Positions 1 through 13,342 of a DNA stretch of 13,342 bases are shown one piece after another. The DNA is taken from the IMG/VR virus record IMGVR_UViG_2513237361_000015, positions 1 to 13,342 of that record; one strand, given 5' to 3'. Under the pieces are notes generated by a model, which was given only the letters and a program-made list of their open reading frames with translations, was not told where the DNA came from and made no database searches. The position numbers and the translations under genes were made by a program. This stretch comes from a virus. Lineage: Duplodnaviria; Heunggongvirae; Uroviricota; Caudoviricetes. Each line of letters starts with the position of its first letter. The first letter of the stretch is position 1.

Positions 1-982
1 TTAGTGAATATATCGAAAAAATACTTTTAAGCTAAAATTGCGGGTCAGATACGGCACCAGTGAATAGTTGATAAATCCCAGCCCCAGCTCTTCGATATTG
101 TTGAAGGTGGCGCGATCGGTGTTCTGCACCATGTGCAACGGCACCCGGAACAGACGACAGATTTCTTCAAGCTGAAACTTGCGGGTTTCCAGGAACTGGC
201 TGTCCTCGGCGTTCAGCGCCATCGACTTCCAGTCCAGCCCCATCTCAAGGATCATCGGGCGGTGAGCATTGCCAAGCCCGGTGTGACGCTCCTCAAAATC
301 TTTCTTCAGGCGCTCATAAGCCTGATCTGACAGCGTCTGCTCTGTACGCAACACACCCGACGTCACCGCGCCATTGCTGAACAGTCTGGCCCCGTGCTCT
401 TCGGTCGCGCCGCCAGCGATATTGCCTCGCGGGCATAGGCGATGGGATTCAGCCCCACCAGCCGTCCAGCGTCAGCGTGCGCACATGCCAGATATCTTCC
501 TGGCTCAGTACATCCGTGGAGCCGTCCGGGAATGTGACCTGATAGACCGGCTCCCAGCGACTGTTAAGCTTCGGTACCACACAACCGGGATCGACGGGCA
601 GCAGTTCAGCCACTTCGCCAAATGCTTTCACTTTATAGGCGTAAAAGTTGCCCCGCAGGCACAGACAGGTGACCACCAGCTCCCAGAACTCCTGCGGCGT
701 CATATAGCCATTGGGATGCGTGGAGATCAGCTTATGCAGACGTTCGCCAGTGGCTCTCTGCTTCAGGCTGCCGTTCAGGTGATACAGGTTGCAGGGCAAC
801 ATCCCGACCGACTCCGCCAGCACCCTGACACAGGAAAAAACCGCCGTCAGTCGCATGGCCCGCTGGCTGCTGATCTGCTTTCCGGTATAGGTGTGGTAGG
901 ACAACCCGATAGCATCCGCCAGCTCTGCTGGCGTGGTCACCGGTGCGTCACTTTTTCGTTGAAATAATCCCGAAAAGAACAC
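1..982 (-). pseudogene. Phage portal protein (HK97 family), disrupted by two frameshifts and 3'-truncated
   Basis: Minus ORFs 449..982 and 1..366 give portal-like sequence (N-terminal part ending TLTLDGWWG; C-terminal part with FQLEEICRLFRVPLHMVQN motif). The reading continues in a third frame as LNPIAYAREAISLAA between them, so two 1-nt shifts lie in about 400-455 (one at the C4 run 454-457). Total is about 330 aa and the last 12 codons are AT-rich. GTG start at 982 with GGAGG 6 nt upstream. Confidence 0.7.
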
Positions 983-1164
983 TATTTACCTCCGCCGACA
1001 GACGACTGTGTACGGTCGAGATATCGCGCCACCAGCCACGACCAGAACAGGCACAACGCCCCGGCAACAACAAACCCAGCCGGGGGATAAATCAGCCAGG
1101 CACCATACGCCAGCAAAAGCGCCCCCAGCACGCCCACCAGAGGCGCGAGAATCAGCATGATCAT
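982..1164 (-). CDS. Small hydrophobic protein (60 aa, two predicted TM helices) between terminase and portal
   Basis: ATG at 1164 preceded by GAGG with 5-nt spacer directly after the TerL stop; stop TAG overlaps the portal GTG (TAGTG). Sequence is almost entirely hydrophobic. Function unknown. Confidence 0.45.
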
Positions 1165-1175
1165 AATTACCTCAG

Positions 1176-2909
1176 TTAAAGCGAGCGGATCCCATAGGAC
1201 TCAATGTGGTCAGACAGCGTGTCTTCTTTCTCGTACAGCATGGCTCTGCCAACCGCCATAATCAGCGCAACTGCACCATCGATTTTGTTTTCCGCCTGCT
1301 CTTTGACGGGCTTCACCACATCATCGTTACCCGGAATGGTTTTGCCGACCACGTTGCCGATACACCAGGTCATGATGGGATTGCCATCATGATGAAAGCG
1401 CCCCGATTCAATTGCCGCTTCCAGCTCTTTCATCGGGTCGGACATGTTGGTGTAGTTCTGAATGATAGTGATGGGGTTCAGGTCTTCATCAGCAAGGTCA
1501 TGTGACAACCCGGTCGCCCCGAAGGGGTCGATGGGTGACTCACTGACCGGGCTGATTTTGTTCGCCGCTTTGGCCTCCTCGAGGATGTAGCGATAATCCA
1601 CCTCCGCACCATCGGTAACGGTCAGAACGCCCATTTCCACCCATTTCTGAAAGCGTTCGGCTGTCCGTCGATCTTCATTTTTCTCGACGCTGTACACCGT
1701 GTCATACGGTACCCAGAAACGCGGGGCCACACTGTAGTAATGCGTTTTACCGTCAATCTCGCGGGTATAAAGTCGCGCCATACTGTTCATATCCAGCTTA
1801 CGCGCCAGGTCAAAGGCCAGAATGCACGGCTGCCCCTCGAACTGCTCAAGGGTCAGTGATTTATCCTCGCAGCTCTGCCAGCTCACCAGATTGAAATACG
1901 CCGAACGCGCCGACACCCAGATATTGAGGTGTTTTGTTTTAAAGACGTTTGCCAGACGGGCGTTATTTTTCGCACGCTGCTGCTGACTTAACAAAAATTC
2001 GCGATAAACCGACACGCCAATATTTGGATTGGCTTTTTCCAGCACCTGCGGGTCGGTCCAGTCATCGCCTTCGTCAACGGTATAGATGATCCCGAACAGT
2101 TCATCGTTGGGCACCGAGCCGTTGAGCATCTCGATGACTTCCCGCCGCTTGTCGTAGCACGGCCCCTCAATGTTGTACCCGGCAGTAGTAATGGCCCACA
2201 TCAGTGGCTGACGTCGCGCCCCCATCCCGGTAAGCATCGTGGTGTAAAGCGCATCGGTGGCGTGCTCGTGATATTCATCCACCACGGCACAGTGGGGTGA
2301 TGAACCATCACCGGGGTTACCGATCAGCGGTTCAAAACGCGCACCATCCTCCGGACGGTTCATGTTTGAGGCGTTAACCTCAATCCCGAACGCTTCCGTC
2401 AGCATGGGTGTGCGTTTACACATCAGTCGTGCCGGACGAAAGACTTCCCATGCCTGTTTCTCCGTCGTGGCACCGGAATACACTTCCGCGCCGAACTCGT
2501 TATCACAGGCAAAACAATACAGGGCAACACCGGCAGAGATTGCCGATTTGCCGTTCTTACGGGGAATTTCGGTATACACCTCCCGGAAGCGGCGCAACCG
2601 GGTGCCTTTATTGACCCAGCCAAACGCACAGCAGATCACAAATAGCTGCCACGGCTCCAGCGTGATGGGCATCCGTTTAAATGCCCACTCACCCTTGGTG
2701 TGCGGCAACAGCTGAATAAATTTGGCGGCCCGTTCAGCCAGGTCCTTGTCGAAGCGGTAACGAAACGACTTACTTTTTTCCGCCATCAGGTCATCAAGAT
2801 GGCGCTGGCAGGCCTGAATCACAAACTGGCAGGCAACAATCTTTCCGCGCACGACATCCCGGGCATACTGATTTGCAGCATTTACGTTGGGGTAAGATTT
2901 CCGGCTCAT
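1176..2909 (-). CDS. Phage terminase large subunit
   Basis: 577-aa ORF with a Walker A-like PRKNGKSA motif and the overall look of lambdoid/HK97-type large terminases; start ATG overlaps the reconstructed TerS stop (ATGA). Confidence 0.9.
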
Positions 2910-3399
2910 GATTCGATAATTTTCAGAAACGGGTTAGTGGCTTTCTTCTTCCCCGCCAGGCCAATCAGACGCTGGCGGCTGCTGGGGTCGAGTCCGAGCA
3001 TTGCCCCCGTCTGCTCATCTCGGACTCCTGTTCTTTTTTGGCGGTCAGCTCCGGATTTTTGACCCTGCCGCCCATTGCACCGGTGATGGTGTTGCCCTGT
3101 ATGGCAATATTTTTCACGGCACGTCGCCAGAACTCATAGGCCACGCACCACCGCTCAAGTACCGCGAGGTCAGTCACGCACAGCAGGCCCTGACCGCAGA
3201 GTTCTTTGGTTGTCAGTTGCCACATGATCGTGGCGAGAGGGAGATCTTCTTCAGCGAACCACTCCGGTGGCTCAACACCTTTGATGGGCGTAAAAACAGG
3301 TTCATCTTTATTCAGGGCTCGCTTGCCGGGGTTTCCGGCCAGCGCCTTGCGCGCCGTTGGCTTGGGGCGACGCCCGGAACGCCCCGCCGTTCCAGCCAT
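2910..3399 (-). pseudogene. Phage terminase small subunit (P27 family), apparent 1-nt frameshift near its 3' end
   Basis: N-terminus MAGTAGRSGRRPKPTARKALAGNPGKR is P27-family-like; ATG at 3399 with AGGAG 8 nt upstream. The given frame stops at 2965, but the adjacent frame is open ([31 protein letters not shown]) down to a stop overlapping the TerL ATG. The switch point is the C5/G5 run at 3005-3009. Confidence 0.75.
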
Positions 3400-3408
3400 A
3401 TGCGGCAC

Positions 3409-3525
3409 TCCTGGTTAAATTTCATTTTTCGCGGGTATAAAAAAACGATGGGGCGGGCAGTCCGGAAGACGTCAGGTCACAGGGATTTGACCCGCCCCTC
3501 CCCCGCAGATAGTTGAGAGTTATTA
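3409..3525. other. Putative cos (cohesive end / terminase recognition) region
   Basis: Intergenic GC-rich segment between HNH endonuclease and terminase small subunit, the position cos occupies in HK97-type phages. On the minus strand it carries GGGGCGGG (3450-3443) and, about 41 nt further 3', its inverted copy CCCGCCCC (3401-3394). Confidence 0.3.
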
Positions 3526-3876
3526 TCACTTCAGTCGTTCACGGGCCGTCTTCGTCTTATGACACGGCCAGCACAGGCTCTGCAGATTGCAGTCTGCATC
3601 AGTGCCGCCATGCGCTTTAGGGATGATGTGGTCAACGGTTTTCGCCTCACGCACCACACCGACACGCAGGCACAACTGACACAGGCCTTTGTCACGCTTC
3701 AGCACGCGCGCGCGGATAACATCCCACTTCGAACCGTAGCCGCGCTGGTGACGGGATTGTCCTGGCTTGTATTGTTTCCAGCCTTCGCTTTTGTGGCTTT
3801 CGCAGTAGCCTGACGGGTCAGTGGTGGTTTGGCGGCAGCCGCGAACGCGGCAGGCTTTTGGGGTTCGTGGTGGCAT
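3526..3876 (-). CDS. HNH endonuclease (terminase-associated)
   Basis: ORF from ATG 3876 (GGAG 5 nt upstream) has paired Cys clusters (CRVRGC...C, CQLC, CWPC) and the DHIIPKAHGG HNH core; sits immediately upstream of cos and terminase as in HK97-like phages. Confidence 0.85.
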   Translation of the reverse strand: MPPRTPKACRVRGCRQTTTDPSGYCESHKSEGWKQYKPGQSRHQRGYGSKWDVIRARVLKRDKGLCQLCLRVGVVREAKTVDHIIPKAHGGTDADCNLQSLCWPCHKTKTARERLK

Positions 3877-3885
3877 GCTGGCTCC

Positions 3886-3912
3886 AATAAAAAACCCCGC
3901 GACGCGAGGCTT
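3886..3912 (-). terminator. Rho-independent terminator after the 67-aa membrane protein gene
   Basis: Minus strand reads GCCUCGCG-UC-GCGGGG followed by UUUUUUAUU: about 6-bp GC stem (one G-U pair) plus U6 tract. Confidence 0.5.
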
Positions 3913-3941
3913 AGACAGAAAAAACACCGGATAAGATCTGG

Positions 3942-4145
3942 TCATTCTTCCTTTTTAATAATGACTTCTCGAGGGCGCAATTGTTGGATAGCACGACAAA
4001 TACAATATGGAATAACTGCCCATGCTACTCCCATTGCTGCACCTGCAGCCTGTTGTGGAGCACTCTGAGCACCGAAAACCCCGAGGATTCCTTCAATAAA
4101 TCCAATAGCACTACACAAAAGACTGATGACCCAGAGAATTTTCAT
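3942..4145 (-). CDS. Small membrane protein (67 aa, two predicted TM helices), function unknown
   Basis: ATG at 4145 with AAGGAG 9 nt upstream; two hydrophobic stretches separated by a short Ala/Gln-rich segment, charged C-terminus KKEE; followed by a terminator. Confidence 0.5.
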   Translation of the reverse strand: MKILWVISLLCSAIGFIEGILGVFGAQSAPQQAAGAAMGVAWAVIPYCICRAIQQLRPREVIIKKEE

Positions 4146-4262
4146 AAACCCAAACTCCTTTTAAATAAACACTTTACTAGGATAATTCTCATAAAATGTT
4201 AGTAAAGTATTTTCAGGAAAATAGCGTATCACTGCCTATTTTTGACACTGATGCCGGGATAA

Positions 4263-4688
4263 TTATTCCGGTCGCTGGAGTTGCTCATGATGATACAGAG
4301 CGAGAATCAGGTCATAAGACCCTTGCCTGTCTTTGTAACCAGTTTTATCAACCAATTCAGCTTTACTGATTCCGGGTAAATCAAGAATCAGATTCGCAAC
4401 TTCAATTGCCCTTTGGTACAACTTACCGCCCTTTTTCTCCCCATGCAGTGGTTTTACATTCTTGAGGTAACCGCTATCCGCTAGGGCGAGAAATGTTGCC
4501 CTTGGGCATATCTTCTTTCTTGACGATTCGCTTTCTGTAACCTCTGCGACAGCTGTATCCCATGCATCACGAGGAGGCATTGAGCTATCAGCAACCAAAT
4601 GATAAGCGATTAAAGCGGCGCGCGCGTATTGAGACATAATGCATCCATATACAAAAATCTCATGATAAGACTTTTCTAATATGAACAC
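4263..4688 (-). CDS. Hypothetical soluble protein (about 124-141 aa), no recognisable domain
   Basis: Open frame immediately 3' of Rz on the minus strand in a lower-GC segment (about 42 percent in a 60-nt hand count). Start is uncertain: GTG 4688 overlaps the Rz 3' end, ATG 4637 has only a weak RBS. Confidence 0.4.
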
Positions 4689-5119
4689 TGTGATCTCACA
4701 TACTCTTGCAGGCCATTCAATTGGTTAGTTATGGTTTCGATGCGCTCTCTGAGAACGAAATAATCCCGTTGAGCGGTGTCAGTAAGTCTGGGGCTGGAAG
4801 CATCATCCACGCCGGAGGCGGCGGTGGTTTTATGCATGTCCGGACAGACTGCTTTGACGTGCAGCCACTTACGACCAGCAGAAACATCAGCACGAAGACT
4901 TTCGATAGTCGCGTTAGCATCAGCAAGCTCCTTTGTATATCTGGCATCGAGTTCAGCTACATTACTTTGACGTTTCTGCATGTCAGCGATAATGGATGCG
5001 GCCTTATCGCGCTGCTTTTTGTAGGTGATGGCGTTATCACGGTAATGATTAACCGCCCATGACAGGCAGACGATGATGCAGATAACCAGAACGGAGATAA
5101 TCGCGGTGACTCTGCTCAT
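4676..5119 (-). CDS. Rz: Rz i-spanin (inner-membrane lysis protein)
   Basis: 147 aa starting [34 protein letters not shown], with TKELADA and ASPRL...RDYF...RER motifs closely resembling lambda Rz; N-terminal TM anchor plus coiled-coil-like body. Confidence 0.9.
4729..4920 (-). CDS. Rz1: Rz1 o-spanin lipoprotein, embedded in Rz in the +1 frame
   Basis: Embedded ORF has lipobox LLVVSGC and CTSKQSV...KPPPPPAW...TPLNGIIS, matching lambda Rz1; internal Met start chosen from the longer 4729..4947 ORF. Confidence 0.85.
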
Positions 5120-5165
5120 ACCTCAATCTCTCTGACCGTTCCGCCAGCTTCTTTGAATTTTGCAA

Positions 5166-5393
5166 TCAGGCTGTCAACTTTATGCTCAAACTGACCATAA
5201 CCAGCCCCGGCAGTGAAGCCCAGATATTGCTGCAACGATCGCCACTGCGTTCTCTTCGGTGCGCTGCTGTTTGGCTTTCTCTGCTACTTTTCCACAACCA
5301 CGAACATTGCCAGTAAAAAACGCTGAGTGCGGCTGCAACCAGCACAACAATACCGCTAGCAATAATTTCTATGATTCCCATTATCTTTACCAT
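5166..5393 (-). CDS. Small hypothetical ORF (75 aa) with N-terminal TM segment; possibly frameshifted
   Basis: N-terminus MVKIMGIIEIIASGIVVLVAAALSVF is TM-like but the rest of the given frame is low-complexity. The adjacent frame after the A6/T6 run (5315-5320) reads TGNVRGCGKVAEKAKQQRTEENAVAIVAAISGLHCRGWLWSV, which looks more protein-like. Weak RBS. Confidence 0.3.
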   Translation of the reverse strand: MVKIMGIIEIIASGIVVLVAAALSVFYWQCSWLWKSSRESQTAAHRRERSGDRCSNIWASLPGLVMVSLSIKLTA

Positions 5394-5420
5394 CTCAGCA
5401 GTTTAGTTTTTGCAAGCATA

Positions 5421-5447
5421 AAAAAACCGCCCGAAGGCGGTTTTATA
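5421..5447 (-). terminator. Strong rho-independent terminator (usable in both directions)
   Basis: AAAAAA-ACCGCC-CGAA-GGCGGT-TTTT: 6-bp stem with tetraloop (UUCG on the minus strand), U-tracts on both sides; lies just 3' of the 93-aa gene. Confidence 0.6.
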
Positions 5448-5462
5448 ATAAATATACTAACC

Positions 5463-5744
5463 TCAGTCTTCCGTTCCATCTGGGTTGACAGGTTTGGTGA
5501 TTGCTTTCAGTCGAACAACTGGATCACCATCACCGTTGCTTACAACTGTTCTAATGGTCTTGTCATCCCGAGGGGTAAATGTTACTTCTACATCAAATCC
5601 CATAGCTGCATGTTCATCACACAAATAAGCGTTAGTATTGTGGGCCCAAATTGCAGATAAATTATCCAGTTCACGTCTCAGACGCACACCGATAATTTTA
5701 TCTGCATGTCTACCACATCCTTCAATGATGCATGTTCCTGACAT
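5463..5744 (-). CDS. Cys-rich small protein (93 aa), possible zinc-binding, function unknown
   Basis: ATG at 5744 with AAGGA 7 nt upstream; Cys at positions 5 and 10 plus a later LCDEH Cys/His pair suggest a small zinc ribbon; placed directly 3' of the methyltransferase. Confidence 0.5.
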   Translation of the reverse strand: MSGTCIIEGCGRHADKIIGVRLRRELDNLSAIWAHNTNAYLCDEHAAMGFDVEVTFTPRDDKTIRTVVSNGDGDPVVRLKAITKPVNPDGTED

Positions 5745-5796
5745 TGTATTTTCCTTCTTTGGTTAACCAAGGAGAAAACTACCATAAACCAGAAAC

Positions 5797-6720
5797 CTAT
5801 TCAGCTTTTTTGCTGTAACTTACTACGCTAGTTAACCTTTTTCTTTCCAGCCCAAGTCGTTCTTTAGCTACTTGGCAGTGTTCATCAAGCAATTCAAAAC
5901 CTACTGACTTTCTGGACAGGCGAGATGCCGCCACAAGTGTAGTGCCTGAGCCTGCAAACGGATCCAAAACAACATCGCCTTCTGTTGTAAACAAACGAAT
6001 AAACCATTCAGGAAGAACTTCGGGGAATGCTGCACTGTGGCCTTTGTTACCACATTCAGTTGCCATGTGCAGCACATTCGTCGGGTATGCCATTTCTCTT
6101 CCCTGCCAGTTTGAAATGTTCTTTCCGAACCCACTACCAACTCGCGACTCATCCCTCATCATGTCCCGCGAGCTTAATTTTTTTAGCCTCTCATTCTTCC
6201 AGTCCCCCACAGGAACCATAACCGCTTCTTGGTACATTGCAAACTTTCTGTTTTTTGTAAAGTGCAGACAGCGTTCCCAAGAATCTCTGAATCTATTAGG
6301 CCATTTACCAGGGAATGAATTCTTCTTATGCCAGATATATTCTTCTGTCCACAGCCAACCCAGCTCTCGCATTTTAAGAATAAGCTCTAAAACATATGTA
6401 TGTCTTTCGCCATTCACTACCTTCTCTTTAATGTTAAGCACAAAGGAGCCTGAAGGCTTAAGAACCCGTAGCAGTTGCTCCGCTATAGGTGAAAACCAGT
6501 CAACATACTTGTCAGGGGCAATGCCACCATAAGTCCTCTTTCGTTGATCTGCATACGGTGGTGAAGTAACGATGAGATCTACAGAAGAATCGTCCATCAT
6601 GGTTAGCAACTCAAGACAGTCTCCTTGATAGAGATTTATCTCATCAGTTTTTATATTAATTGTCGCTTTTTTAAGCATTCCATACATCTCCAGCGAAAGT
6701 AACTGAAGAATAGCAGCCAT
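5797..6720 (-). CDS. DNA methyltransferase, beta-class N6-adenine/N4-cytosine type
   Basis: Motif IV SPPY (TSPPYADQ) lies N-terminal to motif I DPFAGSGTT, the order typical of beta-class amino-methyltransferases; SPPY leans towards N4-cytosine but is not decisive. Likely true start is ATG 6678 (MLKKATINIK, GGAG 9 nt upstream). About 37 percent GC in a 60-nt hand count. Confidence 0.85.
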   Translation of the reverse strand: MAAILQLLSLEMYGMLKKATINIKTDEINLYQGDCLELLTMMDDSSVDLIVTSPPYADQRKRTYGGIAPDKYVDWFSPIAEQLLRVLKPSGSFVLNIKEKVVNGERHTYVLELILKMRELGWLWTEEYIWHKKNSFPGKWPNRFRDSWERCLHFTKNRKFAMYQEAVMVPVGDWKNERLKKLSSRDMMRDESRVGSGFGKNISNWQGREMAYPTNVLHMATECGNKGHSAAFPEVLPEWFIRLFTTEGDVVLDPFAGSGTTLVAASRLSRKSVGFELLDEHCQVAKERLGLERKRLTSVVSYSKKAE

Positions 6721-6793
6721 TCTTCCTGCGGTCCATCTCTTTCTACCCAGTTTTTTAAATTACATGGGTGCTTGGATAACTTGCCGCCGTCCC

Positions 6794-7405
6794 TCACACC
6801 AGCACCGATTTCGCCAGGTTAAACAGCGCGCGGCGTTTATCCAGACCGTTACTACCGCCATTAATAAGCAGCGTGACGCGTCCCAGGTCGCCAGAATGAA
6901 GCAGGCAACCGCGGGAAGCATAGAACCACGCAGCTGAGCGCGCGGCGTATTCATCCTGTTCCAGCAATTCAGGCTGGGTAACAAGGTCGAGTTTTAGTGC
7001 GTAGCCACAGATGCAATAATTACGGAGACCAGTGATTTGAATTAATCCTCTACCACGATATTTCCAGCCATCACCGGGTGCTTTGTTACCCAGTCGGTTG
7101 CTATACACCAGATTGGCAATAGCATCCTGACGAGCTGCATGTCCGGATGTTCTACCAAGGGCATCAGCCTGCTGCTGTGTGATCCTCTTTCCGAACGTCG
7201 CCACCAGCGCAGATGGTGTGTAGTTAAAATTTTCAACTACGGCGCTAAACCCCATCGACTCATGGCCTACCTGAGCGATAAACATTGCCTGATCCGCTGG
7301 TGCTGTAATGCCGAATTCCTTCATCGCCGCATCAATGTGCGGAAACCAGCGCGCAGCCAGCCCGGCGCTAATACCAGCCGCCTTTTGAAATAATTGTTGG
7401 TTCAT
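6794..7405 (-). CDS. Endolysin, glycoside hydrolase family 19 (chitinase-like phage lysozyme)
   Basis: 203 aa with AARWFPHI...EFGIT...AMFIAQVGHES.GF...ENFNY...GDGW.YRGRGLIQITG...QPELL.QDEYAARSAAWF...INGG.NG motifs characteristic of GH19 phage endolysins; ATG overlaps the upstream stop (TAATG). Confidence 0.9.
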   Translation of the reverse strand: MNQQLFQKAAGISAGLAARWFPHIDAAMKEFGITAPADQAMFIAQVGHESMGFSAVVENFNYTPSALVATFGKRITQQQADALGRTSGHAARQDAIANLVYSNRLGNKAPGDGWKYRGRGLIQITGLRNYCICGYALKLDLVTQPELLEQDEYAARSAAWFYASRGCLLHSGDLGRVTLLINGGSNGLDKRRALFNLAKSVLV

Positions 7406-7686
7406 TAGTGCCTCAGATGATCAACCAGACGTGCAACGTTGCCTCTGACGGCCACCAGCACGGAAAGGAAAATAGTGTTCGCCACGATAATGGGCCATGA
7501 GGAATGAGGATAAATCCCACAGAGATAGGCCAACGGAACAGCACTGTATGTAACAGTAATCAGCCAGGCTAAACGTGAAACCCAAGGACGATGCCGCGAA
7601 TCACCACGACGATAAAACATCAGAGTAATAACAACACAAGCACATAACAGCGCATTTATAGTTGCTGTCGGGTCATTTAGCTCCAC
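7405..7686 (-). CDS. Membrane protein (93 aa, about 3 TM), holin/antiholin-like lysis accessory
   Basis: Hydrophobic ORF between the putative holin and the endolysin, overlapping both neighbours; assignment rests on position and hydrophobicity only. Confidence 0.45.
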   Translation of the reverse strand: MELNDPTATINALLCACVVITLMFYRRGDSRHRPWVSRLAWLITVTYSAVPLAYLCGIYPHSSWPIIVANTIFLSVLVAVRGNVARLVDHLRH

Positions 7687-8059
7687 CTGAACCTCCCCGG
7701 CGCGTTATGAGCGCCACCAGCGAGCCGATATCCTGATTATTCAGGAACGTCAGGATTTTAACGGCTAAAGCAGAGACGATTACGGCACCAATAGCATCCA
7801 GAGGTTTATCACTGTATCCGGTCAAGTTCGCCAGCTTGGAGCCAACCAACCCAGAGCAAAGAATCCCGGCAATATATGACACGATAAAATATGCCAGTCG
7901 ACGCGATGCACTCAGATCTGCTGCTGTTGCTATGTAGAATACAGCCCCTGCAAATGCACCAAATACAACGCCGTAATCAGTTCCGGTCAGCAGTCCATAA
8001 ACACTGGCACCCGTCAGGGCACCACCAGCCAGCCCAGTACCGGAAATTGGATCGGACAT
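7673..8059 (-). CDS. Putative holin (128 aa, multiple TM segments)
   Basis: First gene of the lysis cluster after the Q-proximal cargo; Gly/Ala-rich TM segments and charged C-terminus; ATG 8059 preceded by GAGGGGG with 4-nt spacer. Confidence 0.55.
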   Translation of the reverse strand: MSDPISGTGLAGGALTGASVYGLLTGTDYGVVFGAFAGAVFYIATAADLSASRRLAYFIVSYIAGILCSGLVGSKLANLTGYSDKPLDAIGAVIVSALAVKILTFLNNQDIGSLVALITRRGGSGGAK

Positions 8060-8172
8060 TTAGCCCCCTCTTAATTGCTGTGAGTCCTCTCAGGTATGAG
8101 GGGAAATAGGCTCAGGCTTCACGGGCTGGATATATCAACAAAGCACGTAACGGATGATTCCCGTGATCCTGA

Positions 8173-8199
8173 AATAAAAAAGCCCCGCTATTACGGGGC
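8173..8199 (-). terminator. Rho-independent terminator after the 213-aa moron gene
   Basis: Plus strand AAATAAAAAA-GCCCCG-CTATTA-CGGGGC; on the minus strand this is a 6-bp GC stem followed by UUUUUUAUUU. Confidence 0.6.
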
Positions 8200-8219
8200 A
8201 GTTAATAGAATTATAAAGT

Positions 8220-8861
8220 TTAAAAGTTTAAAGAAACCATAAAGCTACCAGGCTCTGCACCAGCTTCTTTATTTATTTCTTTACGGATTACCTCATTAAC
8301 CTGAAAAGCCTCATTGTAAACTTTTTCTAAGTTAATTGACGCCTTCATATTATAGTATGTTTTTTCCTCACAAACATATAACCTTATCGGATATGGCCTA
8401 GGGTTGATTGCCTTCCAGTGGGAGATCACAAAATTATAAACTGCAATACCATGACCTTTCATCTTCCCTGCTGTAACATCAATGTTTAGCTGATCTAAAT
8501 ACTCATCGAAGTGTTGCAAGGTGTTTCTCACCCTCACGGAATTAATTTCCTTAATTTCAATATCTTTTATTTTTTGTTGAAGGTAATTACTTCGCTCAAT
8601 ATGCAATCTGAATTGTTCAGGGGATTCTTCCCTAGTCTTATTTTTAGGAACTGCGATTAGTTTCTTGACGTTAGCCGCATCTGAAAGAATGCTATTTATT
8701 AATATATGAATATTGTAATCAATTTTAAAGTAGTAACCAGCATCAGGAAGTGGTGTCTCATGAAAGAGCTCTTCACAGCGTGTTTTTATCGAATGAGTTA
8801 ACAACCATAATTCGTGCAAATAAATAAAATTAAGTTTCATTTGCTCAAAGGTTTTTGACAT
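8220..8861 (-). CDS. Hypothetical protein (213 aa), AT-rich moron in the Q-to-lysis hotspot, no recognisable domain
   Basis: Uninterrupted ORF with ATG 8861 and AGGAG 8 nt upstream, about 30-33 percent GC in hand counts against about 52 percent for the phage backbone; own promoter-like element and terminator; no TM segments or motifs I recognise. Confidence 0.65.
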   Translation of the reverse strand: MSKTFEQMKLNFIYLHELWLLTHSIKTRCEELFHETPLPDAGYYFKIDYNIHILINSILSDAANVKKLIAVPKNKTREESPEQFRLHIERSNYLQQKIKDIEIKEINSVRVRNTLQHFDEYLDQLNIDVTAGKMKGHGIAVYNFVISHWKAINPRPYPIRLYVCEEKTYYNMKASINLEKVYNEAFQVNEVIRKEINKEAGAEPGSFMVSLNF

Positions 8862-8889
8862 AGCGAACTCTCCTTTTCAATAGTCCGCT

Positions 8890-8919
8890 TTTATAGCATT
8901 TACATAAGGGGCCTGTGAA
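8890..8919 (-). promoter_or_regulatory. Candidate sigma70 promoter for the 213-aa moron gene
   Basis: Minus strand TTCACA (8919-8914), 18-nt spacer, TATAAA (8895-8890), about 30 nt upstream of the ATG. Confidence 0.3.
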
Positions 8920-9016
8920 TTACTATTCTGTTGCTTACCACACTCTCGCAGTGGCCGCGCTCATGCCTTTGAGACCGTAGTCAGGGGTATCTCATGAATC
9001 CCTCACCTCTAACCGG

Positions 9017-9037
9017 AGAACGATTGGCGATCGTTCT
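9017..9037. repeat. Perfect 8-bp inverted repeat AGAACGAT-(5 nt)-ATCGTTCT
   Basis: Read directly from the sequence; no flanking U-tract on either strand, so not a terminator; candidate protein-binding palindrome or RNA hairpin in the late leader. Confidence 0.5.
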
Positions 9038-9202
9038 GGAGTACCGGCACACCTCTTCTTTATTAACCCTAACCAGTGTGTGTTGCAGTTCGTACCTGCA
9101 TCTGGCTCTCATGGAGACTCGGGACCGCATCACGACTGCGGATTTGCCTATCGGCTGCGGTCTATCCGTTTACTGGTGCATTTTCTTACCCTCCAGAAAA
9201 GC

Positions 9203-9226
9203 AAAAACCCCGCCGAAGCGAGGTTT
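9203..9226 (-). terminator. tR'-like rho-independent terminator in the late-transcript leader
   Basis: Minus strand CCUCGC-UUCG-GCGGGG followed by UUUUUGCUUUUCU, about 45-60 nt downstream of the candidate late promoter; strand-specific, since the plus-strand version mispairs. Confidence 0.5.
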
Positions 9227-9273
9227 GTTATGATTTCGTTAACGGCAGACATACAAAGCCCATCGTTAGGAAA

Positions 9274-9302
9274 ATCCTAACCAGATTTTTTGAAAAATGC
9301 AA
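9274..9302 (-). promoter_or_regulatory. pR'-like late promoter (candidate site of Q engagement)
   Basis: Minus strand TTGCAT (9302-9297), 17-nt spacer, TAGGAT (9279-9274), beginning about 32 nt after the Q stop codon, the canonical lambdoid position. Confidence 0.4.
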
Positions 9303-9333
9303 GAATCATGTCGCTATCTTCGGCGAAAATCAT

Positions 9334-10086
9334 TTATCTCGTCACTTTTCTTAATTGCGCCTCAGCATATGCTTCTTCCTGCCAGCACTTTGTCACCAGT
9401 TTATCAATGACATCTGCATATCCTTTGTACCACTGATAATCCGTCAGGTCTGGTACCAGCTTCTGGACATGATGCCGCGCCAGTGTGGTTGGTAAACGGC
9501 TAAACCGGTTTCCATTGCAACGCCCACAAATCTTATAAACAGGCATGCCATGAAGCCGGGTTCTTTTTTCATCCAGGACAATACCTTTACCCTTACACCC
9601 TCTGCACGCTGTGCTGACTTCTCCCTTACCATGACAATGCTGACATAGTTCCTTCACCCACTCTTCCTTGATAACAGATTCCCCGTTTCTGGAGTGTTTC
9701 ACCACTTCGCGCAATACATTATGAAATCCCGTACCTGCACAATGCTCACAGCGAGCCTTACTTGCCGCAGATCTGGAATAATCAGCAAAGGCAAAATTCA
9801 CAAGGTAAGGAATGATCTGTAGCCGGGTTTCTTCACTCAATTTATTCAATGTCGGGTTATCCAGTGCCATCGCGTAATTGAGCAGACCTTCAATCGCAAA
9901 CTGAGGATCCTGAACACCAACTTTTGCCAGGAATAAGGCAAACCCAAGCGGTGCTTTCGACTGCACCATCCCCTGCGCAGCCATCACATCCGTAATCGTT
10001 AAACCACCTGAGCCTGTCGCCGGTGCGTCATCGCTCAATTTTGGAGATTTTGGGGAGTAATATTTTGGTAAGGCTTCAAGGTTCAT
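9334..10086 (-). CDS. Q: Late-gene antitermination protein Q (lambda Q family)
   Basis: Matches lambda Q at YSPKSPKLSDD, TDVMAAQGM.QS, FAFADYSRSAAS.ARCEHCAGTG and C-terminal KVTR; carries an extra Cys/His-rich segment (CQHCHGKGEVSTACRGCKGKG, CGRCNG). Start chosen at ATG 10086 (GGAG 7 nt upstream, just after the DUF968 stop). Confidence 0.85.
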   Translation of the reverse strand: MNLEALPKYYSPKSPKLSDDAPATGSGGLTITDVMAAQGMVQSKAPLGFALFLAKVGVQDPQFAIEGLLNYAMALDNPTLNKLSEETRLQIIPYLVNFAFADYSRSAASKARCEHCAGTGFHNVLREVVKHSRNGESVIKEEWVKELCQHCHGKGEVSTACRGCKGKGIVLDEKRTRLHGMPVYKICGRCNGNRFSRLPTTLARHHVQKLVPDLTDYQWYKGYADVIDKLVTKCWQEEAYAEAQLRKVTR

Positions 10087-10099
10087 GCTCGTTCTCCAC

Positions 10100-11095
10100 T
10101 TACGCCAGTACGCCAATTGCCAGCGCACGATCGATAAAACGAAATATCAGCTCCAGTTGGGAGCCATACTTCTCTTCAAATGCCACGGTATCCGCATGCA
10201 GTTCGTCGTGATGCTTTCTGCACAAAGGCAACACAAAGAGGTCATGCGCTTTTGTACCCATTCCCCCCTGACCGTGGCCTATCAGGTGGTGGGGATCATC
10301 AGCAGGCTTTCCACAACATGCACACGGCTGTGTCTTAACCCAGCGCGTGTACTTTTCATTAACCCAGCGGCGACGTTTGGGGCGTAACATAAAAGACTCC
10401 GGCGACTCCGGCTCCACTTTCAGCGCCAGCACCTTTTTCGCTTTATCCTGGATGATGCTGGTGGCAGGAACCGAAGGCACAAGGTCACTTTCCCGGGTGA
10501 CAGACGGCACAACAGGCTTCGGTAATCTCAGTGCCTTACGGGCTGCACTTTCCGGTAAGGCATCCGCCAGATCATTACGAACCAGCCACCAGCACAGTTC
10601 CGGCATTGTCACAACGTGACTGTCATCAAAACCGAGATCCCGACGCACAACAGACAACACCCAGCGGGCACAGTTATCCGTTGCCATTGATTCCAGCCGT
10701 TCCGTGAATTGATCGCGCAGCTGGTTATCACAGTGCCAGCACAGACGGATTGCGCCCGGAGCGTGTCGCATTGTGGTCATGTTCTCGCTGTGCCAGTCGG
10801 AATGAGGCCACTGGCAGCCCTTTTCACGAAGTAACCAGCTTTCAAGACATTCCACGCCACCAGCACGACGGATCACTGCCTCATTGCGGAACACGGCCCG
10901 AACAGCAGGATCATCCGCCAGCGGTTGTGATGCCGCGGGAACGGCACCACTGGCGAAAGATGAATAACGTTCCGGCTCAGGCTCCAGCAGTACACGCCCC
11001 TGCATAAACAGGGGCATCAGCTCTGAACCTGGTCTGAACAATACGATCCCCATACGCGGGGCTATTTCAGGGGTCAGTAGTGCTCTCACGGTCAC
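10100..11095 (-). CDS. DUF968-family prophage protein with HNH-like Cys/His C-terminal motif
   Basis: 331-aa ORF whose C-terminus (CACCGKPADDPHHLIGHG...LCRKHHDELH) fits the zinc-binding motif of DUF968 proteins found next to Q in lambdoid prophages; start GTG 11095 or 11089. Confidence 0.65.
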   Translation of the reverse strand: MTVRALLTPEIAPRMGIVLFRPGSELMPLFMQGRVLLEPEPERYSSFASGAVPAASQPLADDPAVRAVFRNEAVIRRAGGVECLESWLLREKGCQWPHSDWHSENMTTMRHAPGAIRLCWHCDNQLRDQFTERLESMATDNCARWVLSVVRRDLGFDDSHVVTMPELCWWLVRNDLADALPESAARKALRLPKPVVPSVTRESDLVPSVPATSIIQDKAKKVLALKVEPESPESFMLRPKRRRWVNEKYTRWVKTQPCACCGKPADDPHHLIGHGQGGMGTKAHDLFVLPLCRKHHDELHADTVAFEEKYGSQLELIFRFIDRALAIGVLA

Positions 11096-11096
11096 C

Positions 11097-11636
11097 TCAA
11101 TGAACGGTATCGAGCAGCTTTAACAGCTCAGGGAATCGGGATTCGAAGAAATGCGGCTGCGTCTCGCGCGGATTTGCGGGACTGGTGATGTTCTTGCCGA
11201 ACATGCAGCCTTTCGCTGTCAGCGACCAGAATTTTTTGATGTTGTTAATCGCGGTACGGCTGTATCGTTCGCGCTGCTCGACGATCCCCAGCTTCACCAT
11301 CTGGTGATATGCCTGATTAGCTGTCAGGTGGATACCATACTGCTTCAGCAGTGCACTCAGTGACAGCGTGGGGCGGCTTGAACCATCAGGCGCGTCAGCA
11401 GGAGCATCAATGGCATAGCGCGGTGCCAGATTCGGTAAGCCAACAGCCTCCTGGAGTTTCTGACAGGCACCAAGCACTGAAGAGTTAGACAGGTTTAACT
11501 CCCTGCGCATAAAGTCCAGCAGAATCACTCCAGCCTGCATCTTGTCAGCAGCCTGCCCGGATAATTTTTCCGGTACGCTGGTTACCATGTCGAAAGTACG
11601 GATCACCTTCAGATGGAATGACGGGCTGATCCACAT
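11097..11636 (-). pseudogene. Phage antirepressor-like protein, 5'-truncated (only the last part of a KilA-N domain plus the C-terminal domain remains)
   Basis: Recognisable sequence begins at DYVCKELVYAYAMWISPSFHLKV, which resembles the C-terminal end of KilA-N domains; the upstream part of the 318-aa ORF is low-complexity and overlaps the plus-strand fimbrial gene. First in-frame ATG is 11636. Confidence 0.45.
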
Positions 11637-11787
11637 TGCATAGGCATACACCAGTTCCTTGCAGACATAATCGGATTTTGAACTGCGGTTGCCAGCAGAG
11701 GGTACACCTGCAGCATGGCAGGCGGGGCTGAATGTGACGGTTACAGTACAGTGATGGTTGCAGGGATATAAGGAGAAAAAAAGAGAA

Positions 11788-12552
11788 ATGAAAAAGGTGA
11801 CGTTGTTTCTGTTTGCTGCCGGCCTCCTGCCTTCCTGTGTACTGGCCTGGAACACGCCGGGAGAAGATTTCAGCGGAGAGCTTAAGCTGGAAGGCCCGGT
11901 GACCAGCACCCGTAACCCGTGGGTATGGAAAGTCGGACAGGGAAATGAAGGCCTGGAGGTTAAACAGAGCCGCGGTGTTCGTGACGGTGAGCAGGCAATT
12001 CCGGTCGCACTGCCGGCGATGCCCGTTTTACTGGGAAAAACCACCCTGACCACACCGGCAGGACGTGAGGGGCTTTCTCCCCGTGTCAGTTACGGAAAGG
12101 GTACTGAGGGATTTTCATTTGAATGGACAGCACCAGGCGTGGCGGAGGTGACGCTGCCTGTCACCGGAGATAATAACGTCCGGGCAGGCACTTTTGTTTT
12201 CAGAATGCAGGCTGCGGGGGTGTTGCGCCATGTGAAGGACGGACAGCCGGCGTATGCCGGTGTGTATGACGACCTGAATGTGAATGGTCTGCCTGGTGAA
12301 AGCGCAGCCATGAAGACTTCTGATATTCCGGGTGTTCTGCAGAAGATGTTCAGTGGCGAAGGCCCCGGCTGGCTGCAGACAATGACCATCAGTGGTTATT
12401 CAGGAGTGAGTCATTTCAGTGATGCCTCCCTGCGTCAGGTCGAAGGTGCGTATGGCGCACAGATGGTGGCGGGCAGTGGTGAATTACGTCTGAACGGTGC
12501 AATGCCGGAACGCTGGCGGGTGTCACTGCCGGTAAGTATTGAGTACCAGTAA
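11788..12552 (+). CDS. K88/F4-family fimbrial subunit (FaeG/FaeH-like)
   Basis: Signal peptide MKKVTLFLFAAGLLPSCVLA, then WNTPGEDFSGELKLEG...WVWKVGQG...MPVLLGKT, recalled from memory as resembling the mature N-terminus of K88 FaeG; C-terminal strand ends SIEYQ. ATG 11788 with AGGAG upstream. Confidence 0.55.
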   Translation: MKKVTLFLFAAGLLPSCVLAWNTPGEDFSGELKLEGPVTSTRNPWVWKVGQGNEGLEVKQSRGVRDGEQAIPVALPAMPVLLGKTTLTTPAGREGLSPRVSYGKGTEGFSFEWTAPGVAEVTLPVTGDNNVRAGTFVFRMQAAGVLRHVKDGQPAYAGVYDDLNVNGLPGESAAMKTSDIPGVLQKMFSGEGPGWLQTMTISGYSGVSHFSDASLRQVEGAYGAQMVAGSGELRLNGAMPERWRVSLPVSIEYQ

Positions 12553-12568
12553 ACAGGAGGGCGGCCCG

Positions 12569-13342
12569 GTGCTGAATATTATTCATCGTCTGAAGTCCGG
12601 TATGTTTCCGGCTCTGTTTTTTCTGACTTCAGCCAGTGTGCTGGCGCAACCGCTGACTATTCCTCCGGGCCACTGGCAGGAGGGTATGGCTGTGGGCGTG
12701 ACGGAATTCAGCGGCACGCTGTATGTCCGCGATGTGTCCTGGCAGTGGCAGCCCCGCGCTGTGCGTATGAGTTCTCCTGATGCTGTGCAGGCTGGCCTGG
12801 CAGCGGGTAAAGGTGGCATGGTCAGTGAAAGCCGGAGAGGGCAGGATTTTTATATTCTTGGCGGGCATACCACATCACTGACAACTGCCCGTCCGGGGCT
12901 GCAGCCGTCGGTGACATTGCTTCAGGTGACACCATCATCCCCCCGTATTGAGGCCCGGGGAGAACTTGCCCGGGGACAGGTACGTTACGGGGAAATCACG
13001 TTCACGCTGCGCCATCTTCTGGCATGGCAGGACAATATTACTGGCGGTCAGGGCTGGAGCGTGGTCAGCGGAGAGGTGACGCCGGAGGCCGAAAAACAGG
13101 TGAAACGCCAGTTATGGCAGGTGAACGGCTATGAATGGACCCCGGATTATGCCGGATTAACCGCACGTCCTGATGCGTTTATTTCAGGAACTGAGTCGCT
13201 GTTGTCACAGGGGAATGGCAGCCAGCATATTGCCGGTGCCTGGGTGATGTACCTGAGTGATGTGCGGGTGAATTTCCCCGGTGCTGAGGAGCCGGTAAAA
13301 CGCTGGCAGGGTAATCTGACACCGGTGGTGGTGTATTTCTGA
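12569..13342 (+). CDS. Second K88/F4-like fimbrial subunit paralogue, secreted
   Basis: GTG 12569 with AGGAGG 8 nt upstream; signal peptide (LNIIHRLKSGMFPALFFLTSASVLA-QP); same length class and W.W / FSG pattern as the upstream gene; ends VVVYF. Confidence 0.5.
   Translation: MLNIIHRLKSGMFPALFFLTSASVLAQPLTIPPGHWQEGMAVGVTEFSGTLYVRDVSWQWQPRAVRMSSPDAVQAGLAAGKGGMVSESRRGQDFYILGGHTTSLTTARPGLQPSVTLLQVTPSSPRIEARGELARGQVRYGEITFTLRHLLAWQDNITGGQGWSVVSGEVTPEAEKQVKRQLWQVNGYEWTPDYAGLTARPDAFISGTESLLSQGNGSQHIAGAWVMYLSDVRVNFPGAEEPVKRWQGNLTPVVVYF

What the first reader, a model, noticed from the sequence alone, without database searches (positions are those of the whole stretch)
1..3408. Three single-nucleotide frameshifts in portal and terminase small subunit genes
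The portal reading frame breaks twice within about 50 nt (about 400-455, one at a C4 run) and the terminase small subunit breaks once at a C5 run (3005-3009). In each case the adjacent frame continues with family-consistent sequence, and for the terminase it ends in an ATGA overlap with the large subunit. Either the prophage is decaying or these are homopolymer sequencing errors; the two readings have very different consequences for whether the element can still package DNA.
Basis: seen in the sequence. Interest (0 to 1): 0.5.

Follow-up and report, generated by a model that had tools for sequence, protein, structure and literature searches.

The report
Assembly-artefact frameshifts in prophage packaging genes
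Three one-base gaps that break a prophage's small terminase and portal genes are almost certainly errors made when two near-identical prophage copies were merged in an old draft assembly, so the finding is ordinary.

Summary
The three frame breaks are in the sequence. Each is one missing base, between window positions 408/409 and 461/462 (portal) and 3010/3011 (small terminase). None lies in a homopolymer: the nearby C4 and C5 runs are intact in every relative.

The window comes from AEME01000001.1, the 2011 draft of Escherichia sp. TW09308 (cryptic clade V, E. marmotae). That record is contigs joined end to end without spacers. The phage block is window 39-11670 and is cut inside genes at both ends, so the apparent portal truncation is a contig end.

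About 90 intact relatives and more than 1000 complete E. coli genomes keep all three bases. The broken products occur on only this one record among about 15 billion proteins.

- Window 39-3400 is a patchwork of two known haplotypes that differ at 65 of 3365 sites.
- All three missing bases fall on such sites (p about 7e-6), and all are third codon positions.
- Two of them are the only two A/T differences of the 65.
- Two sit exactly where the sequence switches haplotype.
- The adjacent 8.2 kb has no indels at all.

Best reading (confidence 0.85): a consensus artefact from collapsed paralogous prophage copies. It is neither prophage decay nor a homopolymer read error.

The parts
2906..3399 (-). 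Small terminase subunit, P27 family. One base is missing between 3010 and 3011. As written it gives a 144-aa product that stops at 2965. Repaired, it gives 164 aa with a stop that overlaps the large-subunit ATG (ATGA at 2906-2909).
   Evidence: TIGR01558 scores 72.4 bits against a cut-off of 45.6. The repaired protein is exact on 59 contigs. The 144-aa product occurs on one contig only.
3010..3011 (.). Missing base 3. Relatives carry A (37) or G (41) here. It is a third codon position and lies at a switch from haplotype A to haplotype B.
1176..2909 (-). Large terminase subunit, intact, 577 aa.
   Evidence: The exact protein is listed in 10995 blocks of the collection. In the 10 places read it always sits beside a full-length small subunit (161 or 164 aa) and a 413-aa portal. 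Pfam TerL_ATPase and TerL_nuclease.
982..1164 (-). ymfR, a 60-aa small protein between the large terminase and the portal. Intact.
   Evidence: exact protein on at least 1000 contigs.
39..982 (-). Portal gene, HK97 family, codons 1-315 only. Two bases are missing. As written it splits into a 177-aa ORF (449-982) and a 121-aa ORF (1-366). The gene is cut off at 38/39 by a contig end.
   Evidence: TIGR01537 scores 200.9 bits against a cut-off of 112, covering profile positions 3-280 of 343. Both fragments occur on one contig only.
408..409 (.). Missing base 1. Relatives carry T (63), A (15) or C (1). Third codon position. One of only two A/T differences between haplotypes A and B.
461..462 (.). 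Missing base 2. Relatives carry T (66) or A (13). Third codon position. The other A/T difference, exactly at the switch from haplotype A (39-461) to haplotype B (462-748).
1..38 (.). End of an unrelated 1.45-kb Rhs-region block, butted directly against the portal. This is a contig join, not a biological junction.
   Evidence: the Rhs block is L012 13362-14814, and relatives continue as portal beyond window 39.
39..11670 (.). The phage contig block. It runs from a KilA-N fragment through DUF968, antiterminator, lysis genes, DNA methylase and HNH to the terminase genes and the portal fragment. It is cut inside genes at both ends.
   Evidence: L097 matches 39-11670 at 99.5% with only the three gaps, and window 3311-11498 differs from L097 at one base. 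Gene list.
3526..3876 (-). HNH endonuclease gene just upstream of the small terminase. This is the usual partner of this packaging module.
11671..13342 (+). Part of a separate 2.0-kb block with F4/K88-type fimbrial genes: the end of faeH, then faeI and faeJ. It is butted against the phage block.
   Evidence: The other end of this block abuts the first base of tufA.

Best explanation
The three frameshifts are errors in the assembled consensus, not mutations in the cell.

Shown: the window comes from the 2011 draft of Escherichia sp. TW09308, whose single 4.8-Mb record is a chain of contigs joined without spacers.

Inferred: the strain carries at least two closely related HK97-type prophages whose terminase-portal modules differ by about 2%. 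The assembler, or a later contig-merging step, collapsed the two copies into one chimeric consensus. At most sites where the copies differ it chose one allele. At three sites it wrote no base. Each dropped base shifts the frame, so gene callers see a truncated small terminase and a portal in pieces.

The end of the portal at 38/39 is simply the end of that contig. The real prophages probably have intact packaging genes.
For: (1) Source and record structure.
- The broken products map to AEME01000001.1, which is TW09308.
- Homology to E. coli ends one base before tuf, a duplicated gene, and runs straight into a 2.0-kb fae block. The phage block, a 1.45-kb Rhs block and proX follow, so every boundary is at a repeat family.

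(2) Private to this record.
- Each broken product occurs on one contig among about 15 billion proteins.
- 86 aligned relatives, including 10 that encode the identical large terminase, keep all three bases.
- None of more than 1000 complete E. coli genomes lacks them.

(3) Placement of the gaps.
- All three missing bases are polymorphic in 79 unique relatives, with minor allele counts of at least 13. Only 3.1% of sites reach that level, so p is about 3e-5.
- With haplotype A = L001 and haplotype B = L097, every site of window 39-3400 except one carries the A or the B allele. The three gaps fall on 3 of the 65 differing sites out of 3365, p = 7e-6.
- Both of the only two A/T differences are the deleted ones.
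- The gaps at 461 and 3010 lie exactly at haplotype switches.
- All three are third codon positions.

(4) Errors are confined to the mixed stretch. Window 3311-11498 differs from L097 at one base and has no indel.

(5) Repair gives known proteins.

(6) Several copies of this prophage type in one genome do occur: GCA_023275955.1 has three.

(7) The same laboratory published a protocol that merges de Bruijn contigs with Newbler at 95% identity. That setting would fuse copies that are 98% alike.
Against: - No reads were available, so the error is inferred and not seen.
- I could not confirm that TW09308 was assembled with the Newbler-merging protocol, because Luo et al. 2011 is not held.
- Only 3 of 65 differing sites were dropped, and I cannot say exactly why those three.
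- Natural phage mosaicism could account for the A/B patchwork on its own, though not for the placement of the gaps.
Confidence: 0.85

Rival explanations
1. Real, very recent pseudogenisation. The prophage in TW09308 truly lost one base in the small terminase gene and two in the portal gene, and is decaying.
For: Frameshifts in morphogenesis genes are a common route of prophage decay (general knowledge). Being private to one strain also fits a recent event. nrdF in the same record is split as well, so the strain might carry several pseudogenes.
Against: Random deletions would have to hit 3 of the 65 haplotype-differing sites in 3365 nt (p = 7e-6), include both of the only two A/T differences, and sit at haplotype switches. 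There is no other sign of decay: only three substitutions unseen in the 79 first relatives, two of which reappear in L097; the large terminase is intact; and the neighbouring 8.2 kb matches an intact prophage at all but one base. The apparent truncation of the element is a contig join.
Confidence: 0.1
2. Homopolymer read errors of the 454 or nanopore type, miscounting the C4 and C5 runs.
For: C runs lie 2 to 15 nt from the breaks. The nrdF split elsewhere in the record is an extra T in a T run, so homopolymer errors or slips may exist in this assembly.
Against: Alignment is unambiguous. The missing bases are T/A, T/A and A/G flanked by different bases, and the C runs have the same length as in all relatives.
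Confidence: 0.03
3. Real deletions created by recombination between two co-resident prophages. Faulty repair of heteroduplex mismatches would remove the mismatched base.
For: This would explain why the gaps lie on haplotype-differing sites and at switches.
Against: Known mismatch repair replaces a tract by copying one strand; as far as I know it does not delete the mismatched base. It would also need three such events in one element that is seen in a single draft record.
Confidence: 0.02

Closest known systems
Consensus errors in collapsed repeats of short-read draft assemblies (chimeric contigs from paralogous prophages)
   Same: The assembly is fragmented and breaks at repeats. The consensus mixes two haplotypes. 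The errors are confined to the repeated stretch. The artefacts are private to one record.
   Different: The error here is a dropped base at a site where the copies differ, not a wrong allele. The exact software step responsible was not identified.
HK97-type packaging module of E. coli prophages (HNH, P27-family small terminase, large terminase, YmfR, HK97-family portal), as in the e14-related and many other prophages
   Same: Same gene order, the same overlap between the small and large terminase genes, and 98-99.5% nucleotide identity to intact prophages in E. coli.
   Different: Only the three missing bases, and the cut after portal codon 315 at a contig end.
True cryptic-prophage pseudogenes, such as the portal remnant beeE of E. 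coli K-12 e14 (from my own knowledge)
   Same: A portal gene that looks truncated and out of frame.
   Different: In K-12 the defects are inherited and reproducible across independent sequences. Here they are seen in one draft record and are placed on haplotype-differing sites.

Membership tests
Phage terminase small subunit, P27 family (TIGR01558 / PF05119) | Score above the curated cut-off of the family model | tested here: met
   The repaired 164-aa protein scores 72.4 bits against a cut-off of 45.6. Pfam Terminase_4 is recorded on the 144-aa product.
Phage terminase small subunit, P27 family (TIGR01558 / PF05119) | Lies directly upstream of the large subunit gene and overlaps it | tested here: met
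   The repaired frame ends at 2906 in an ATGA overlap with the large subunit start at 2909.
Phage portal protein, HK97 family (TIGR01537 / PF04860) | Score above the curated cut-off of the family model | tested here: met
   Repaired codons 1-315 score 200.9 bits against a cut-off of 112 and cover profile positions 3-280 of 343.
Phage portal protein, HK97 family (TIGR01537 / PF04860) | Full-length gene followed by prohead protease and major capsid genes | tested here: not met
   In the window the gene ends after codon 315 at the join with the Rhs block. In relatives the 413-aa portal is followed by an S78 protease gene and, in all but one place read, a capsid gene. The failure is attributed to a contig end, not to biology.
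Decaying (cryptic) prophage pseudogene | The defect is inherited, so it is seen in independent sequences of the lineage | tested here: not met
   The broken products occur on one contig among 15 billion proteins. No complete E. coli genome lacks the bases.
Decaying (cryptic) prophage pseudogene | Defects are placed without regard to polymorphic sites, and other signs of relaxed selection are present | tested here: not met
   All three gaps lie on haplotype-differing third codon positions. At most one base in 39-3400 is unseen in any relative compared (1078).
Homopolymer-length sequencing error | The indel changes the length of a run of identical bases | tested here: not met
   The missing bases are single T/A or A/G between unlike neighbours, and the C runs are unchanged.
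Collapsed-repeat consensus artefact | Two or more copies of the stretch in the genome, with mixed reads at the differing sites | not testable with these tools
Indirect support comes from the A/B patchwork, contig ends inside the module and three copies of this prophage type in GCA_023275955.1.

The most novel reading that the evidence does not exclude
The gaps are real and were made in the cell when two co-resident prophages recombined. Faulty processing of heteroduplex mismatches would have deleted the mismatched base, giving a mutational signature by which related prophages in one genome inactivate each other's packaging genes.
Probability: 0.03. Interest if true: 0.5.

Novelty: not a real feature. 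Interest (0 to 1): 0.07.

Why it matters
It matters little for biology. This is a common HK97-type packaging module, and its defects are most likely not in the cell.

It has some practical weight. TW09308 is a widely used reference for cryptic clade V (E. marmotae). Counts of pseudogenes, of intact prophages or of functional divergence taken from this record will include artefacts. They will also read contig joins as deletions.

Gaps that fall on sites where paralogous copies differ give a simple test for this kind of error when no reads are available.

Tried and rejected
- **Homopolymer error:** rejected by alignment.
- **Truncated prophage remnant:** this was my first reading of window 1-38 and 11670. 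I rejected it once the record proved to be concatenated contigs.
- **Generally error-rich assembly:** rejected for this block, because 8.2 kb next to the terminase genes has no indel and one mismatch against L097. The only other frameshift seen in about 12 kb of core flank is an extra T in a T run in nrdF.
- **A fourth 1-nt gap at 5205/5206 against L005 and L007:** this is natural variation at a mosaic edge, since L097 has no gap there.
- **First look-up of the truncated terminase:** it found nothing because I used the GTG at 3408 and not the true ATG at 3399 (corrected).
- **Papers:** Luo et al. 2011 and Gangiredla et al. 2018 could not be read. A search for a published statement on Newbler consensus at polymorphic sites found nothing useful.
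- **GTDB scan:** a scan of GTDB representative genomes for the continuation of the portal found only a Shigella flexneri genome. TW09308 did not appear among the matches, so the scan said nothing about a second portal copy.

Full report
**What is in the sequence**

All genes of interest lie on the minus strand. Translation in three frames shows four genes.
- A P27-family small terminase starts at the ATG at 3399.
- An intact 577-aa large terminase occupies 1176-2909.
- The 60-aa ymfR occupies 982-1164.
- An HK97-family portal starts at the GTG at 982.

The small terminase leaves its frame once and the portal twice. Each time the family sequence continues in another frame. Global alignment to an intact E. 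coli prophage (L001) and to ten more loci that encode the identical large terminase gives the same result each time. There are exactly three 1-nt gaps in the window, between 408/409, 461/462 and 3010/3011, and no other indel in these genes.

The local contexts are ggtcgc[T/A]gccgcc, caccag[T/A]ccgtcc and ccccgt[A/G]ctgctc. The missing base is therefore never part of a run, and the placement of each gap is unambiguous.

The observation of three single-nucleotide frameshifts therefore holds. So does the ATGA overlap with the large subunit. The homopolymer context does not hold.

**Family membership**

With one base restored, the small terminase is 164 aa. It scores 72.4 bits on TIGR01558 against a cut-off of 45.6. 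It is an exact match to a protein recorded on 59 contigs.

With two bases restored, portal codons 1-315 differ from the L001 portal at one residue. They score 200.9 bits on TIGR01537 against a cut-off of 112. After codon 315 the sequence is no longer a portal.

**Where the window comes from**

The three broken products (144, 177 and 121 aa) are each recorded on exactly one contig among about 15 billion proteins. That contig is AEME01000001.1 of GCA_000208565.2, 4,809,826 bases long. A published strain table gives AEME00000000 as Escherichia sp. TW09308, cryptic clade V, from fresh water in Michigan (PMC7716201). It is now counted as E. marmotae (PMC11546641).

**The record is a chain of contigs**

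Upstream of the window the record runs yheO-tusDCB-rpsL-rpsG-fusA. Homology to E. coli stops one base before the start of tuf, a duplicated gene. The blocks that follow are listed below.

| Block | Position | Content |
|---|---|---|
| fae | window 11671 onward, about 2.0 kb | starts inside faeH |
| phage | window 39-11670 | late-gene region of a prophage |
| Rhs | L012 13362-14814, 1.45 kb; its last 38 bases are window 1-38 | Rhs fragment |
| core | after the Rhs block | proXWV-nrdFE |

This is not Escherichia gene order, and every boundary falls at a repeat family. The record is therefore contigs joined end to end without spacers.

A prophage in another genome (L097, GCA_023275955.1) matches window 39-11670 at 99.5%. 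It continues on both sides: a whole KilA-N gene on one side, and the rest of the portal, the protease, the capsid and a contractile tail on the other. The portal truncation is thus a contig end. It says nothing about whether the element is complete.

**Are the three gaps real?**

Several independent lines say no.
- *They are private to this record.* All 86 relatives aligned keep the three bases, including 10 that encode the identical large terminase. So do more than 1000 complete E. coli genomes that carry the module; their best matches to short queries around the sites differ from the window only by the gaps.
- *The block is otherwise clean.* Window 3311-11498 differs from L097 at one base and has no indel. 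A generally error-prone assembly is therefore not the cause.
- *The gaps sit on variable sites.* In 79 unique relatives the missing bases are T63/A15/C1, T66/A13 and G41/A37. Only 3.1% of sites have a minor allele that common, which gives p of about 3e-5 for three of three. All three are third codon positions (coordinates).
- *The stretch is a two-haplotype patchwork.* Take L001 as haplotype A and L097 as haplotype B. Every site of window 39-3400 except one then carries either the A or the B allele. The tracts run A (39-461), B (462-659), A (749-2073), B (2112-2286), A (2337-3010), then mostly B. The two haplotypes differ at 65 of 3365 sites, and all three gaps fall on such sites, p = 7e-6.
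- *The gaps mark switches.* The gaps at 461 and 3010 lie exactly at A-to-B switches.
- *The base type is specific.* Of the 65 differences only two are A/T transversions, and these are the two portal gaps.

A random deletion in a living cell has no reason to choose such sites. A consensus built from two slightly different copies has every reason to fail there.

**Most likely mechanism (inferred)**

TW09308 probably carries at least two related prophages whose packaging modules are about 98% alike. Another genome carries three copies of this prophage type, so this is plausible. The assembler or a merging step collapsed the copies, picked one allele at most differing sites and dropped the base at three of them.

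The laboratory that produced this genome published a protocol in which Velvet and SOAPdenovo contigs from several k-mer sizes are merged with Newbler at 95% identity (PMC3277595). Such a step would fuse copies that are 98% alike. From my own knowledge, Newbler builds its consensus in flow space. A tie between T and A in neighbouring flows could then be rounded to no base. I could not verify that this protocol was used for TW09308, and I found no published description of that failure.

**Rivals**

| Reading | Confidence | Main point |
|---|---|---|
| Real recent decay | about 0.10 | Possible without reads, but needs three coincidences with very small joint probability and has no supporting sign of decay. 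|
| Homopolymer error | about 0.03 | Refuted by the alignments. |
| Deletions made at heteroduplex mismatches during prophage recombination | about 0.02 | Would explain the placement, but no known repair pathway does this. |

**Verdict**

The frameshifts are in the deposited sequence but are most likely not in the organism. The question of whether the element can still package DNA cannot be answered from this record. The likeliest answer is that the underlying prophages have intact small terminase and portal genes. Interest is low, and the feature is best filed as an assembly artefact.

Noticed in passing
window 38/39 and 11670/11671; also L013 5180 and L012 14814: The 4.8-Mb record AEME01000001.1 is made of contigs joined without N spacers. 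The joins look like deletions or gene truncations: portal, KilA-N, faeH, and the break at the first base of tufA.
   Followed up: yes
L012 18530-19490 (outside the window, same record): nrdF is split by one extra T in a T run (gagaTTTTTTTcc against gagatcttttcc in E. coli). Both fragments are private to this record. This is a different kind of indel from the three in the finding, and it may be a read error or a real slip.
   Followed up: partly
window 11671-13342: F4/K88-type fimbrial minor subunit genes: the end of faeH, then faeI and faeJ. They are about 96% identical to chromosomal and plasmid fae loci of E. coli and sit on their own small contig block.
   Followed up: partly
window 4676-8059: The lysis region is a mosaic. 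Two holin genes and a GH19 endolysin gene are followed by an N6/N4 DNA methylase gene and a 93-aa ORF. A short remnant of a second lysozyme gene (about 5120-5241) then comes before the Rz-like gene.
   Followed up: partly
L097, L100 and L103 (GCA_023275955.1): One genome carries three copies of this prophage type on three contigs. L103 shows 27 gap openings against the window over 8 kb, which suggests a noisy long-read contig end.
   Followed up: no
window 7415-9223 (L014) and 5061-11670 (L104): Logan assemblies of unrelated runs carry this phage region with no gaps. SRR29904084 is 100% identical and SRR10254056 is 99.9% identical. The phage is therefore circulating, but neither contig reaches the terminase genes.
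   Followed up: partly
window 1078: This is the only base in 39-3400 that matches neither haplotype A nor B nor any of the 79 relatives. It lies in ymfR, and the encoded protein is still the common 60-aa YmfR.
   Followed up: partly
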